Of a DNA stretch of 64,000 nt, positions 18,784 through 33,321 are shown one piece after another. The position numbers were made by a program, and so were the translations under genes. Every line of letters starts with the position of its first letter. Position 1 is the first letter of the stretch. Under the pieces are notes generated by a model, which saw only the letters and a program-made list of their open reading frames with translations, ran no database searches and was not told the origin of the DNA. The DNA comes from Alphaproteobacteria bacterium (GTDB lineage Bacteria > Pseudomonadota > Alphaproteobacteria > MPNO01 > UBA830): positions 2,016,001-2,080,000 of the forward strand of contig OZ219790.1 of NCBI GenBank assembly GCA_964291215.2, written 5' to 3'.

Positions 18784-19323
18784 CATCTCGTCCTGTCCGA
18801 TTCACGTCGCAGATCCGGAAGGGTCTGTCCGAGGTTGAGGTTCGCGAAGCCTGAGGAGCGTCCGCTGCGGGATGCGTTGATGGACGACTATCTCGGGTTT
18901 CGCCGTCTGGCGGAGCTGCGCCATATTGCATCTTTCAGGGGGCAGTGGCCTAGCGGCGTGACGGGGCCTTCAAGTGCCGCGACCCAGGGTGATCTTACGC
19001 TAAATTCTGTCTGATTTTTCAAGACAGTACCTGGGCTTTGCGGAGGCGCGGGTTGGTGCGGGAGATTTTTTTACAGTTTTCGCTGACTTTCCTGCACTGA
19101 AGTTGTCATGGTGCGGGGATGTCGGTTCACAAGCACATCGCATCCTGTCCGATTCACGTCGCAGCTCTGGAAGGGTCTGTCCGAGCATCCATGTTTCTTG
19201 GCAAGGTTTTTGCGGGTGTCTGTGGTGATGTTTTCTGTGGTTGTCCACAAGCGGTGTGGGGTTTGCTCTGCGAGCGAGGCGACATGAAGCTTGTGGTCCC
19301 GGCGGCGGGTTGCCGTCCATTGG

Positions 19324-19500
19324 TCACGTGAACGCGGCTACCTTGCCGTCCCCGGGCATGGTAACGTGACCGTCCGGGTTCCAGGTGTCCCAAGGCGGTT
19401 CGATCTCCTTGATGTCGACCTCGACGATGATCTGCAGACATTCTCCCCAAGTCGTGTCGGAGACTGTCGAGACAGTCCCGATCGCGCTCTCGGCAGGGCC
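19324..19500 (-). pseudogene. Small acidic accessory ORF in the IS110 right end
   Basis: AESAIGTV...DTTWGECLQIIVEVDIKEIEPPWDTWNPDGHVTMPGDGKVAAFT*; homolog in copy B with GGAG-ATG at about 31368. Confidence 0.45.
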
Positions 19501-20246
19501 GTGTCTCCTTCGCTCACTCACCGGTGCTTCAGGCAACGCTGCTGTCGCAGCAAGGTGTTCGCCAGAGCTTGCGCATCACGGCGACAATCGCGACTTTGTG
19601 GGCCTTGCCGGCAGTCTTGAGGCGCACCAGGTCCGCGTTGAAGCGTGCCGGTTGCGGCCATGAACAGGAGATCGCGTGGCCTTCGGCGCCCGCCACGGAT
19701 GTGCCGAGCACCGTGGTCGTTGGCGCCACCCCGATCAAGGCTGCCGACGCTGCCGAGTTCGGGCATCCAGCAAAGAAGGGCCGCGGCGGTCACCGGATCG
19801 AGGTCAGGATGGCATACCTCTGCTTGGGATCACCGGCGATCACCGCTTTGATCGCCGCGCCGGCAATGCGATCATCGAGATCGGCCGCCGAGGCCCTTGT
19901 GACGGTCTCGCCATCCTCCTCATCTGCCACCTGCCTGGCGTCGACAAGCGCGGCACCAGGAGATCCTCCAGGCTCTTGAGGAAGGCGGAGCCACAGGCTC
20001 AAGATCGCCCAGCCGATCTTGGCGTCGACGCGGTTGGCCCATCGCCTCGGCGAAGCCCGCAACGGGTTGACGAGAATAACCTCGAAGCCCCGGTCATGAA
20101 GACACTGGTAAACCTTGCGGTGATAGCGGCCTGTCGCCCACTACCCGGCTCACCCCGAGGCCGCGAAGCCACCTGCCCGTGGCGTCGTTCGCAAAACAAT
20201 GCGCCAGATGTCCAGACTGGCTGACCCTTGCTACTATCTTGACCAT

Positions 20247-20420
20247 CGTCCCTTGCTCCTCGCCTTACGATGATACGGGTTCAAACCCAAGTATCCAGCG
20301 AGGGACGTCAAGGGAGGTTGCCACACTCGGACACGGCCCTGTCAAGGTCGAAACGGCAACCTCCGCGGAGATCGTTTGACCCCCTGTGCGTGTTCGCTCA
20401 GGGGAGCGGAATCTCTCTGC
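20247..20420 (-). ncRNA. IS110 bridge RNA, copy A
   Basis: Stem GGAGGTTGCC (20313-22) / GGCAACCTCC (20355-64) encloses CTCGGACA and AGGTCGAAA matching the flanks of copy A; donor loop closed by CGTCCCT/AGGGACG. Confidence 0.8.
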
Positions 20421-22119
20421 AACCATAGCTCTCCCACAGATCCACATTTTCCCGCCCCCAACTGCTGTGGATGATTTCATCATCAAGGGGACAAAACCTG
20501 GTCATATAAGGTTGAGGTTCGCGAAGCCTGAGGAGCGTCCGCTGCGTTGATGGACGACTATCTCGGGTTTCGCCGTCTGGCGGGGCTGCGCTATATTGCG
20601 TCCTTCAGGGGGCAGTGGCTGGCGGCGTGACGGGGCCTTCAAGTGCCGCGACTGGTGGATTGGCTGGAAGCCGGAGCAGCAGGGCTTGATCTGACAACAC
20701 GCGACTGCTTGCGGCGCCGGGAACGTTTTCGAACCTTGCCTCCTTCTTTCTTGCGACGCGGCGGCTGGCCGACGATTGGGCCTACGGCCACCAAGTGGCG
20801 GAGACGTTCTGCGATCCGGCGCGTTTTGCGGGCACAAGGCGGCGGGCTGGCGTGCCAAGGGGTTTGCCCGCGGGCGCTACACCGACCCCCATGGCAAGGA
20901 GATTTTCGTTGTGCGGCGCGACGGCTGCTGTCGCAGGCGCTGCGGTAGCGCCGCTTGCCTCCTCGCTCCCCGGGGTTCCGAGGTGATGCGTTCGCTGCGC
21001 GAAGAGTTGGCGGCGATCGAGGACTTCCGCCGCGCAGGAAGCACACGGTGTGCTCACGTTCTCGCCGAGCTTGCGAACATGAAAGGCTGCCTCGCAGCTG
21101 CGCAGTTTGCGCGGTCGCTGTCTCAGGACGAGCTCGAGGCCATCGGCGGAACCCGAGGACGGAGCTGCGCGAGCCGCCCTCCAAGGCGACCCTCCACCGG
21201 GCAGTCGATCGACCCCGAGGCGCTCGAGGATGTACTCGGCCGCGGGCTCGCCCGGGCGCTTGCCGCCGACGGCAAGCGCATCCGCGGCGCTAACCGCAAC
21301 GGCCACCACGAGACCGTGGCTCTCACGCCTCCGGCGCACCCTTCGCGCTGTTGAATTTCGACGACGGTGAGCTGGCGGCCACCTCCTCGAGCGCACCGAT
21401 GTCCGCGGCAAGGTGACCACCCGCACGACGCCGGCGGCGCTGATCACCCGGCGCTGCGGCGCAGACCATGTCTTCTCGGTCAAAGGCAATGCGCCCGAAA
21501 CCTTCGACATCCTCGACGGCATCGACTGGGAGCCAGCGGCCGCTTCAAGGAAGAGTAAGGCCCGCCTCGAGCAGCGCGTGCCGCTCAAGGGCTTGATCAA
21601 CTACCCCGGCCAGATCGCCCGCATCAAGCGCTACCGCGAGCCGCTGGGAAAGAGCGCCAACGGCGCAGCGAGCAGCAACGACTGTACATCATCACCTCGC
21701 TCGATGCGCAACACGCGTCGCCAGAGGAACTGCTGCGGCCGCGGGCTGTGGAAAACATGAACCATCGAGACTGCGTCTTCGGCGAAGACGCCTGCCTGAC
21801 ACGCAAACCGCGCCAGCCTCAACAACATCGCGCTCGCGGTGATCTTCGCCAACCGACGCGAGAGCCTCGCCGAAACACGGCGGCGGCTCGACCGCCGAGA
21901 AGCCGTCGCAGCTCTGATTCGGCCCTGAGCGCCAATGGCGTCCGGCCGATTTTCGGATGCCGCCCACAACCCGCCTACATCCCGAAAACAACCCGCCCAC
22001 GCGCCGGCAACGCCGCCGGCGACGACCGTGGACGGCCCCGAAGCCAGAAAACCCGGCAGGTTGTACAACCTGCCTCCATCAGCAGTCGACAAGATCGAAT
22101 GCAGCGTGAGAAAGTCCTG

Positions 22120-30965: not shown

Positions 30966-31385
30966 TGAAAGGCTGTCTCGCAGCTGCGCAGTTTGCGCGG
31001 TCTCTGTCCCGGGACGAGCTCGAGGCCATCGGCGGAACCCGAGCATCCATGTTTCCTGGCAAGGTTTTTGCGGGTGTCTGCGGTGATGTTTTCTGTGGTT
31101 GTCCACAAGCGGTGTGGGATTTGCCCTGCGATCGAGGCGACATGAAGCTTGTGGTCCCGGCGGCGGGTTGCCGTCCATTGGTCACGTGAACGCGGCTACC
31201 TTGCCGCCCCCGGGCACGTGACCGTCCGGGTTCCAGGTGTCCCAAGGCGGTTCGATCTCCTCGATGTCGGCCTCGACGATGATCTGCAGACATTCTCCCC
31301 AAGTCGTGTCGTAGTAGGGAGACTGTCGATACAGTCCCGATCGCGCTCTCGGCAGGGGTGAGGGCCATGAGGGTGTCTCCTTCGC

Positions 31386-32212
31386 TCACTCACCGTGCCG
31401 GTGCTTCGGTCGACCAGCAACGCTGCTGTCGCAGCAAGGTGTTCGCCAGAGCTTGCGCATCACGGCGACAATGGCGACTTTGTGGGCCTTGCCGGCGGTC
31501 TTGTGGCGCACCAGATCCGCGTTGAAGCGTGCTGCCGAGGTCGCGGCCATGAACAGGAGATCACGTGGCCTCCGGCGCCCGCCTCGGATATGCCGAGCAC
31601 CGTGGCCACTGTCGTTGGCCATCGGCGCCACCCCGATCAAGGCTGCCGACGCTGCCGAGTTCGGGCATCCAACAAAGAAGGGCTGCGGCGGTCACTGGAC
31701 CGGGGATCGAGGTCAGGGTACCTCTGCTCGGGATCACCGGCGATCACCGCTTTGATCGCCGCGCCGGCAATGCGGTCATCGAGATCGGCCGCCGAAGCCC
31801 TTGTGACGGTCTCGCCATCCACCTCATCTGCCACTTGCCTCAACTTGGTCCGCACGTCGACAAGCGCGGCGCGCGATACCAGGAGATCCCCCAGGCAGTT
31901 GAGGAAGGCTTCCTGAGGAGCCACAGGCTCGAGATCGCCGAGCACCGTGCCGATCTTGGCCAGCGCGTCAACGCGGTTGGCCAGATGGCCCAAAGCCTCG
32001 GCGAAGCCCTCAACGGGCAGGACAACCTCGAAGCCCCGGTCATGAAGACACTGGTGAACCTTGCGGTGATAGCGGCCTGTCGCCCACCACACGGGTTACC
32101 TCGAGGCTGCGAAGCCACGTGCCCAGTGCCCGCCAGCTCGTGGCGTCGTTCGTAAAACGACGCCCCAGATGTCCAGACTGGCCTTGCTGACCCCTGCTAC
32201 TACCTTGACCAT
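31386..32212 (-). pseudogene. IS110 DEDD recombinase, frameshifted
   Basis: MVKVVAG-VSK (catalytic GID aspartate deleted), AK.D-type region, GVAPMANDSG catalytic Ser, IRGGR, AGKAHKVAIVAVMRKL. Confidence 0.85.
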
Positions 32213-32400
32213 CGTTCCTCGCCTTATGATGATACGGTTCAAACCCAAGCATCCATTCAGGACGCAAGGGACGCCAAAGGAGGTTGCCACGCTCGGGAAC
32301 GGCTCTATAAAGCCAAGGACGGAACGGCAACCTCCGCGGAGATCGTTTGATCCCCGCTCCCCTGTACGTTCTCACACAGGGGAGCGGAATCTCTTTGCAA
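32213..32400 (-). ncRNA. IS110 bridge RNA, copy B
   Basis: 5' hairpin CCGCTCCCCTGT/ACAGGGGAGCGG (32354-87); target loop 32279-32335 with CTCGGG and AGGACGGAA; donor loop with AGCATCCAT (32248-56) and CTTAT (32223-27). Confidence 0.85.
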
Positions 32401-33321
32401 CCATAGCTCTCCCATAGTCGAGGTTATCCACATTTTCCCGCCCCCAACTGCTGTGGATGATTTCATCATCAAGGGGACAAAACCTAGTCATATAAGGACG
32501 GAGCTGCGCGAGCCGCCCTCCGGGGCGGCCCTCCACCGGGTCGTCCGGTCGATCGACCCCGAGGCGCTCGAGGACATGCTCGGCCGCCGGCTCGCCCGGG
32601 CGCTTGCCGCCGACGGCAAGCGCATCCGCGGCGCCAACCGCAACGGCCACCACGAGACCGTGGCCCTTGTCGACCACGCCTCCGGCGCACCCTTCGCGCT
32701 GTTGAACTTCGACGACGGCGAGCCGGCGGCCACGCACGACCTCCTCAAGCGCACCGATGTCCGCGGCAAGGTGATCACCCTCGACGCGCTGCACACGACG
32801 CGCAAGACGGCGACGCTGATCACCCGGCGCTGCGGCGCAGACCACATCTTCCCGGTCAAAGGGAATGCGCCCGCAACCTTCGACACCCTCGACGGCATCG
32901 ACCGGGAGGCGAATGCCACCGGCCGCTTCAAGGAGGCAAGGCCCGCCTCGAGCAGCGCTCGATACGTGCCGATCGAGGACCTGATCAACTACCCCGGCGT
33001 CAGCCGGATCGCCCGCATCAAGCGCTACCGCAAGCCGCCGGAAAAGAGCGCCAGCGGCGCAGCGAGCGGCAACAACCACACCGGTACATCATCACCTCGC
33101 TCGATGCGCAACACGCGTCGCCAGAGGAACTGCTGCGGCTCGATCGCGGGCACCGGGCCGTGGAAAACATGAACCACCGAGACTGCGTCTTCGGCGAGGA
33201 CGCCTGCCTGACCCGCACCGGCCCCACAAACCGCGCCAGCCTCGACAACATCGCGCTCGCGGTGATCTTCGCCAACCGACGCGAGAGCCTCGCCGAAATC
33301 CCGCCGTTTTATGCAACCGAC

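What the first reader, a model, noticed from the sequence alone, without database searches (positions are those of the whole stretch)
20247..20510. Natural re-programming: the two IS110 copies carry different target guides, each matching its own site
Seen: copy A sits in CCTCAAC-CT-CGGACA and its loop reads UUUCGACCU plus the complement of CTCGGACA. The right guide matches 8/8, and the three left differences are all G:T or U:G wobble-compatible. Copy B sits in CTCCGTC-CT-CGGG and has UUCCGUCCU plus the complement of CTCGGG. The enclosing stems and the terminal donor sequences are identical while the guide bases co-vary with the flanks. The copies have lost different parts of the donor stem, so the ancestor CGTCCCTTGC-TCCT...AGGACGCAAGGGACG can be rebuilt from the pair. 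Inference: guide diversification within one genome.
Basis: seen in the sequence. Interest (0 to 1): 0.88.

Follow-up and report, generated by a model that had tools for sequence, protein, structure and literature searches.

The report
Jumping-gene guides retargeted base by base
About 60 now-broken copies of an RNA-guided jumping gene (IS110) in this one genome carry 17 versions of their targeting guide, 12 of which spell an exact site the family has occupied, a record suggesting that such guides are likely retargeted one base at a time, mostly into other jumping genes.

Summary
Both copies are decayed IS110 (IS621-type) elements with an upstream bridge RNA. A's guides fit its flanks 6/9 (plus wobbles) and 8/8; B's fit 8/9 and 6/8. 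They are 2 of 63 copies in the genome. Guides covary with flanks (0 of 20,000 permutations, also per site class), and 12 of 17 guide pairs have an exact occupied target (3.7 expected). The A/B pair alone cannot show in-genome change: the two are 6% apart, about as far as from an intact relative elsewhere. Other genomes also hold two imported guide variants. Better evidence comes from A's lineage: copies 1–3.6% apart carry nine guide pairs forming one single-step network, five with exact sites. 'Each matches its own site' fails as a rule: 25/39 left and 37/59 right flanks match exactly. Likely mechanism: point mutation and shuffling of guide halves, tolerated single mismatches, then spread into multi-copy IS hosts; later all recombinases broke. 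Natural reprogramming between related IS is published; a within-genome stepwise series was not found in 7 searches. The scan noted other IS110 bridge RNAs before, on other DNA, but not this series.

The parts
19184..20510 (-). IS110 copy A, core CT to core CT (A lineage)
   Evidence: the precise empty site (skip of 1325 nt) is seen in public run X1
20511..20517 (-). left target flank of A (CCTCAAC), inside an ISAs1-family host element
   Evidence: host family (weak hit)
19178..19183 (-). right target flank of A (CGGACA)
20313..20364 (-). target-binding loop of A's predicted bridge RNA (10-bp stem; 6-nt and 5-nt stem deletions versus intact relatives)
20345..20353 (-). left target guide of A
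20326..20333 (-). right target guide of A
20247..20307 (-). donor-binding loop of A; left donor guide (20290-20298) damaged, right donor guide at 20264-20268
19518..20246 (-). recombinase pseudogene of A (46 deletions over the element versus L052); 3' end approximate
31042..32496 (-). IS110 copy B (B lineage), inside another copy of the ISAs1-family host
32279..32335 (-). target-binding loop of B
32316..32324 (-). left target guide of B
32292..32299 (-). right target guide of B
32248..32256 (-). left donor guide of B, 9/9 to the element's right end plus core; right donor guide at 32223-32227
31390..32212 (-). recombinase pseudogene of B (PF02371 hit at G000 C1:2047515-2047664); 3' end approximate
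21150..21164 (-). unoccupied copy of B's target site in the ISAs1 host next to A
21689..21703 (+). unoccupied copy of a third family target (TCAC-CT-CGCTC, site S4) in the same host; another at 33089-33103

Best explanation
This is a decayed population of IS621-type IS110 elements that share one donor sequence and carry 17 target-guide pairs, likely produced by single-base mutation and shuffling of guide halves while the family was still mobile. Shown: the guide bases read about 4 nt left and 5 nt right of a CT core and covary with flanks; nine A-lineage pairs form a one-step network; most occupied sites lie in other repeated elements (ISAs1, IS256 and unassigned repeats); every recombinase gene is now broken. 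Inferred: one mismatch was tolerated, so a guide could reach a neighbouring sequence in a multi-copy host, and a matching mutation then spread because it opened many empty sites. Also inferred: because all donors are alike, one copy's RNA could insert another copy, and recombination between copies later moved guides among sites, which explains the many mismatched copies. The deeper split (A, B, older group) may be separate imports.
For: Permutation of guides among copies: left 138/156 matched bases versus 103, right 265/295 versus 205, 0 of 20,000; one copy per site class also 0 of 20,000. 12 of 17 guide pairs have an exact 11-nt site in a generous set of 66; re-pairing the halves gives 3.7, 0 of 100,000. 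A-lineage guide positions are more variable than the rest: 5/9 versus 250/1273 (p=0.019), tri-allelic 2/9 versus 7/1273 (p=0.0015). Site S4 holds copies with 2, 1 and 0 mismatches on one scaffold type. Single mismatches occur in relatives elsewhere. All four combinations of the common left and right alleles exist 24 nt apart, and single-copy site S8 fits one of them exactly. In two hosts the SNP best separating filled from empty copies lies inside the guide-read bases: 14/14 versus 6/13, p=0.0019, best of 18 SNPs; 20/20 versus 8/21, p=1.6e-5, best of 35. Trans action of bridge RNA is shown for IS621 (PMC11208160, passages); target-independent excision is reported in preprint 10.64898/2026.08.31.748434 (abstract and introduction).
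Against: No activity was tested and no intact recombinase of this family remains. Recombination among copies is heavy (15 of 46 SNP pairs under 15 nt apart fail the four-gamete test), so the order of events cannot be read from a tree. Copies in one host site may descend from one insertion carried along by the host. A window-wise control found the empty-site mismatch rate not extreme (80 of 274 and 74 of 370 background windows as high). A linked host SNP at +27 is also associated (p=4e-4), and hosts S3 and S4 show no association. 5 of 17 guide pairs have no site. IS621 screens report low mismatch tolerance.
Confidence: 0.68

Rival explanations
1. All guide variants were imported as separate, already-programmed IS variants from a shared gene pool, and recombination in this genome later made their scaffolds alike.
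For: Two of five other genomes searched carry two guide variants on lineages 9-12% apart, and one variant is shared between genomes at 1.4%. L052 nests among this genome's lineages, support 50-70. Likely true for A versus B.
Against: Coexisting outside variants differ at 5-6 of 9 guide bases, not one. Copy c58 differs from c38 across 235 nt only at two guide bases and one other base. None of this genome's guide pairs was seen among 13 outside loci, and no long copy was found in 40 relatives.
Confidence: 0.2
2. Guides are rewritten after insertion to match the copy's own flanks, either by templating or by selection for excision.
For: The S4 series (2, 1, 0 mismatches) needs only two mutations and no conversion, both G-to-C changes toward the flank; all three copies share a scaffold base found in 8 of 33 lineage members.
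Against: Mismatches persist in 14 of 39 left and 22 of 59 right flanks. None of the 14 S5 copies has adapted its distal guide bases, and B has not adapted to its own site. Short-range recombination can produce the same series. Excision is reported to be target-independent.
Confidence: 0.07
3. The matches are chance or an assembly artefact in a repeat-rich metagenome-assembled genome.
For: 34.6% of the genome is repeated DNA, and some copies are chimeras with flanks from two hosts.
Against: Permutation tests. The same loop positions match flanks in other genomes. Guide-position variants, the B-type loop and the empty site appear in public runs of one study (one run may be the source sample).
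Confidence: 0.03

Closest known systems
IS621 bridge recombinase system (Durrant et al. 2024, PMC11208160; passages read)
   Same: DEDD plus Tnp20 recombinase, CT core, upstream non-coding RNA with a target loop then a donor loop; guides covary with target and donor (shown there across 5,511 orthologue pairs).
   Different: Here the covariation lies among paralogues of one genome. About 4+5 non-core bases are read. All copies are pseudogenes, and a small passenger ORF and long right end follow the recombinase.
Natural reprogramming ISEc11 to ISXne4 (Siddiquee et al. 2024, PMC11187229; passages read)
   Same: Related elements with a shared RNA scaffold and different target-matching bases at different sites.
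   Different: That pair is of the IS1111 type, and its targets share only 3 of 13 bp with no intermediates described in the passages seen; here single-base intermediates coexist in one genome.
IS110-family elements that target repeats or other mobile elements (IS621 and ISPpu9 in REP; IS1383 in IS1384 inverted repeats, seen only as a reference title; IS4321/IS5075 in Tn21 ends, recalled)
   Same: Multi-copy elements serve as landing sites.
   Different: One family here occupies several unrelated hosts, and three different positions in one ISAs1 host, using different guides.
Relatives in other alphaproteobacterial MAGs (L023-L053, protein P0002)
   Same: Same donor, same RNA fold, 315-aa recombinase; the closest is 92-94% identical over ungapped positions.
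   Different: Each lineage there has one invariant guide (4 of 4, 9 of 9, 5 plus 3 copies).

Membership tests
IS110 group (IS621-like) bridge recombinase element | Recombinase with DEDD (PF01548) and Tnp20 (PF02371) domains | tested here: met
   Fragments of a genome copy hit both families; copy B hits PF02371; 315-aa relatives carry both. The genes are broken in all copies here.
IS110 group (IS621-like) bridge recombinase element | Short core (CT) at both junctions, present once in the empty site | tested here: met
   Empty hosts read flank-CT-flank; precise 1325-nt skip in run X1.
IS110 group (IS621-like) bridge recombinase element | Long non-coding region upstream of the recombinase folding into a 5' hairpin, target loop and donor loop | tested here: met
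   Consensus fold of 13 sequences; target-loop stem 99.5% paired with 3 pairs showing two-sided changes. The donor stem never varies, so it gives no covariation support.
IS110 group (IS621-like) bridge recombinase element | Left guide equals, and right guide complements, the target flanks | tested here: met
IS110 group (IS621-like) bridge recombinase element | Donor guides match the joined ends | tested here: met
   B's left donor guide fits 9/9. The right donor guide follows the end variant (CTTAT versus CTTGT) between L052 and the other relatives. Here all 4 CTTGT copies carry the matching guide, but so do several CTTAT copies. Damaged in A.
IS110 group (IS621-like) bridge recombinase element | Promoter formed at the circle junction | tested here: inconclusive
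   Read by eye from the ends: TTGCCA, 17 nt, TATGAC. The scan of the linear left end found no such site. Not tested for function.
IS110 group (IS621-like) bridge recombinase element | RNA expressed, bound by the recombinase, and directing recombination | not testable with these tools
   No RNA holder listed; needs bench work.
IS1111 group | Non-coding guide region downstream of the transposase | tested here: not met
   The guides lie upstream of the start codon.

The most novel reading that the evidence does not exclude
An IS110 family retargets itself in place. All copies share one donor and act as a common pool of guide halves that mutate and recombine, letting the family hop one base at a time between other mobile elements, while host-element variants with a mismatch escape. 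In the boldest form, a guide is changed toward the flank of the site it already occupies.
Probability: 0.25. Interest if true: 0.8.

Novelty: new member of a known kind. Interest (0 to 1): 0.55.

Why it matters
How bridge-RNA guides acquire new addresses in nature is not addressed in the passages I read: published cases compare finished end points in different elements. This genome keeps the intermediates, with about a dozen guide-site pairs, mismatch steps, and filled versus empty alleles of the same host site. That gives a ready-made natural panel for testing mismatch tolerance, trans-guiding and guide-half shuffling with an intact relative's recombinase. The mechanism itself is not new, and the elements are dead.

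Tried and rejected
Rfam scan of the window found only a tRNA. A scaffold pattern scan of genome contigs found 0 matches because the pattern included a deletion private to this genome. 40 relatives gave no long copy; 3 had 26-45-nt matches. The metagenome scan gave 5 loci, 2 close. The wobble reading at distal guide bases was rejected. 'Copies moved after their recombinase died' cannot be claimed: deletions vary within lineages while SNPs stay lineage-specific, so decay may post-date insertion. The window-wise empty-site control was inconclusive. Helix 4 was entered one column out of register; one search is used for it instead. The donor-guide pattern returned nothing, so donor guides were read from alignments. 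No RNA holder listed. No circle-junction joint was listed in four runs kept as contigs, which shows nothing either way. Hosts of S2 and S3 got no Pfam hit. Fragments without a target loop (23 of 86 loci) and one copy with a replaced left flank were left out of guide counts; the deletion analysis used the 60 copies over 1100 nt. Supplements were not read for any paper, and a similar case could be in them.

Full report
What is there. The two segments are the bridge-RNA regions of two IS110 copies on the minus strand: A at 19184-20510 and B at 31042-32496. The genome (G000, 6.15 Mb, 64% GC, permuted tmRNA) has 86 loci similar to them, 61 left ends, 70 right-end matches and 63 target-binding loops. 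Fragments hit PF01548 and PF02371, but no copy has an intact recombinase gene. The 60 long copies carry 20-52 deletions each relative to an intact relative. Relatives with 315-aa recombinases occur in other alphaproteobacterial MAGs. They share the donor and the RNA fold, with two-sided changes in three pairs of the target-loop stem.

A's left guide fits 6 of 9 with three wobble-compatible differences and its right guide 8 of 8; B's fit 8 of 9 and 6 of 8. The rebuilt donor stem equals that of intact relative L052. Two points need correcting. Only about four bases left and five right of the core are read: in 18 outside guide/site pairs those positions are Watson-Crick in 13-18 cases, positions -7 to -5 in 4-6. 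And A's donor guide is damaged.

Genome-wide test. Ten left and ten right guide alleles combine into 17 pairs. Guides match their own flanks far better than shuffled guides, per copy and with one copy drawn per site class (0 of 20,000 each). Twelve of the 17 pairs have an exact 11-nt site among 66 generously defined occupied or reconstructed sites; re-pairing the halves gives 3.7, and random CT sites 0.03. Exact match to a copy's own flank is not the rule: 25 of 39 left and 37 of 59 right. Several guides fit a site held by a different copy, and some copies are chimeras with flanks from two hosts. No A-type guide (0 of 36) lies at a B-type site.

Did the guides change here? Three groups exist: A (34 long copies), B (18) and an older group. 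A and B are 6.2% apart, against 7.4% and 8.3% from L052 in another genome, and L052 falls among them with weak support. Two of five other genomes searched also hold two guide variants, on lineages 9-12% apart and differing at 5-6 of 9 guide bases; within each lineage the guide is invariant. So the A/B contrast by itself is ordinary and may reflect two imports. Within lineage A the picture differs. Copies 1-3.6% apart carry nine guide pairs that form one single-step network, five with exact sites. Guide positions vary more than the rest of the element (5/9 versus 250/1273; tri-allelic 2/9 versus 7/1273). Three copies at site S4 have 2, 1 and 0 mismatches on a shared scaffold type. B's guide is one step from that of its sister copy c31.

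Where they land. 62 of 70 right ends are followed by repeated DNA in a genome that is 34.6% repeats (my count). Hosts include an ISAs1-family element at three positions (A, B and S4), an IS256-family element, another IS110 gene and one single-copy dioxygenase gene. In two hosts the SNP that best separates filled from empty copies lies in the guide-read bases (p=0.0019 of 18 SNPs; p=1.6e-5 of 35). A linked SNP is also associated in one of them, two other hosts show nothing, and a window-wise control was not significant. Passive spread of one insertion with its host therefore remains possible. B's own site has a mismatch at +5 and is filled once against 25 empties.

Mechanism. Shown: covariation, the one-step network, a shared donor, short-range recombination among copies (15 of 46 SNP pairs under 15 nt apart show four gametes, which recurrent mutation can also cause), and single mismatches in relatives elsewhere. 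Inferred: mutation and exchange of guide halves created new addresses; a tolerated mismatch bridged the steps; multi-copy hosts amplified successful alleles; and trans-guiding plus later recombination uncoupled many guides from their sites. Trans action is shown for IS621 (PMC11208160, passages). Target-independent excision is reported in preprint 10.64898/2026.08.31.748434 (abstract and introduction), which weakens selection for matching one's own flank. Post-insertion rewriting is not excluded by the S4 series, but many mismatches persist and no distal adaptation is seen in 14 S5 copies.

Reality check. Public runs of one study (three runs, possibly including the source sample) show variants at guide positions 20331, 20333 and 20338, the B-type loop, and the empty site.

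Against what is known. The element meets the sequence criteria of the IS621-like IS110 group; function is untested. Covariation across orthologues (PMC11208160) and natural reprogramming between ISEc11 and ISXne4 (PMC11187229, passages) are published. Seven searches listed no report of a single-step guide series within one genome. Papers seen: passages of PMC11208160, PMC11187229, PMC12288879, PMC13626964 and 10.1101/2025.10.25.684509; outline, abstract and passages of 10.64898/2026.08.14.744561; part 1 of 6 of 10.64898/2026.08.31.748434; the rest as listings only; no supplements. Earlier scan notes describe other IS110 bridge RNAs and a junction promoter in a relative, none on this genome.

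Verdict. The feature is real and broader than reported. It is a known mechanism, with an unusually complete natural record of how its guides likely change. Interest 0.55.

Noticed in passing
G000 genome-wide; IS110 copies versus L052; window repeats such as 20520-22000: Repeats carry dense short deletions with a 5-7 nt peak (92 of 190 distinct deletions in this family; about 35% of gaps in all repeat alignments), mostly with little or no microhomology. 25 of 74 scored deletions vary in both the A and B lineages while 54 diagnostic SNPs stay lineage-specific. This suggests deletions spread between copies without flanking SNPs, or recur. Unexplained.
   Followed up: partly
L042-L047, L053 (G044): Seven copies share one 7-nt frameshifting deletion yet sit at several different guide-matched sites, hinting at mobilisation in trans.
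   Followed up: no
window 20313-20364 and 32279-32335: A 6-nt deletion in the 5' arm of the target-loop stem is in all 60 long copies (fragment c15 lacks it). A second 5-nt deletion in the 3' arm, in 32 copies, restores a perfect 10-bp stem.
   Followed up: partly
window about 19790-19800, within the recombinase gene: The element itself contains TGAC-CT-CGATC, an exact target for one guide pair (about 60 copies genome-wide), yet no left end was found inserted there.
   Followed up: no
empty ISAs1 hosts genome-wide: 13 of 21 empty S1 hosts and 11 of 35 empty S4 hosts have lost the target by a 6-7 nt deletion over or beside the core.
   Followed up: partly
L005:1872-2117; window about 19380-19510: Remnant of a small passenger ORF (about 82 aa) after the recombinase gene; no Pfam hit.
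   Followed up: no
G000 C1:480856-481926 and 883670-884746: Two other IS110-family genes with open 429-431 aa frames, 24% identical to P0002; unlikely helpers, not tested.
   Followed up: no
L059 (G000 C1:2110800-2113900): One copy is inserted inside the DEDD region of a different IS110 gene.
   Followed up: no
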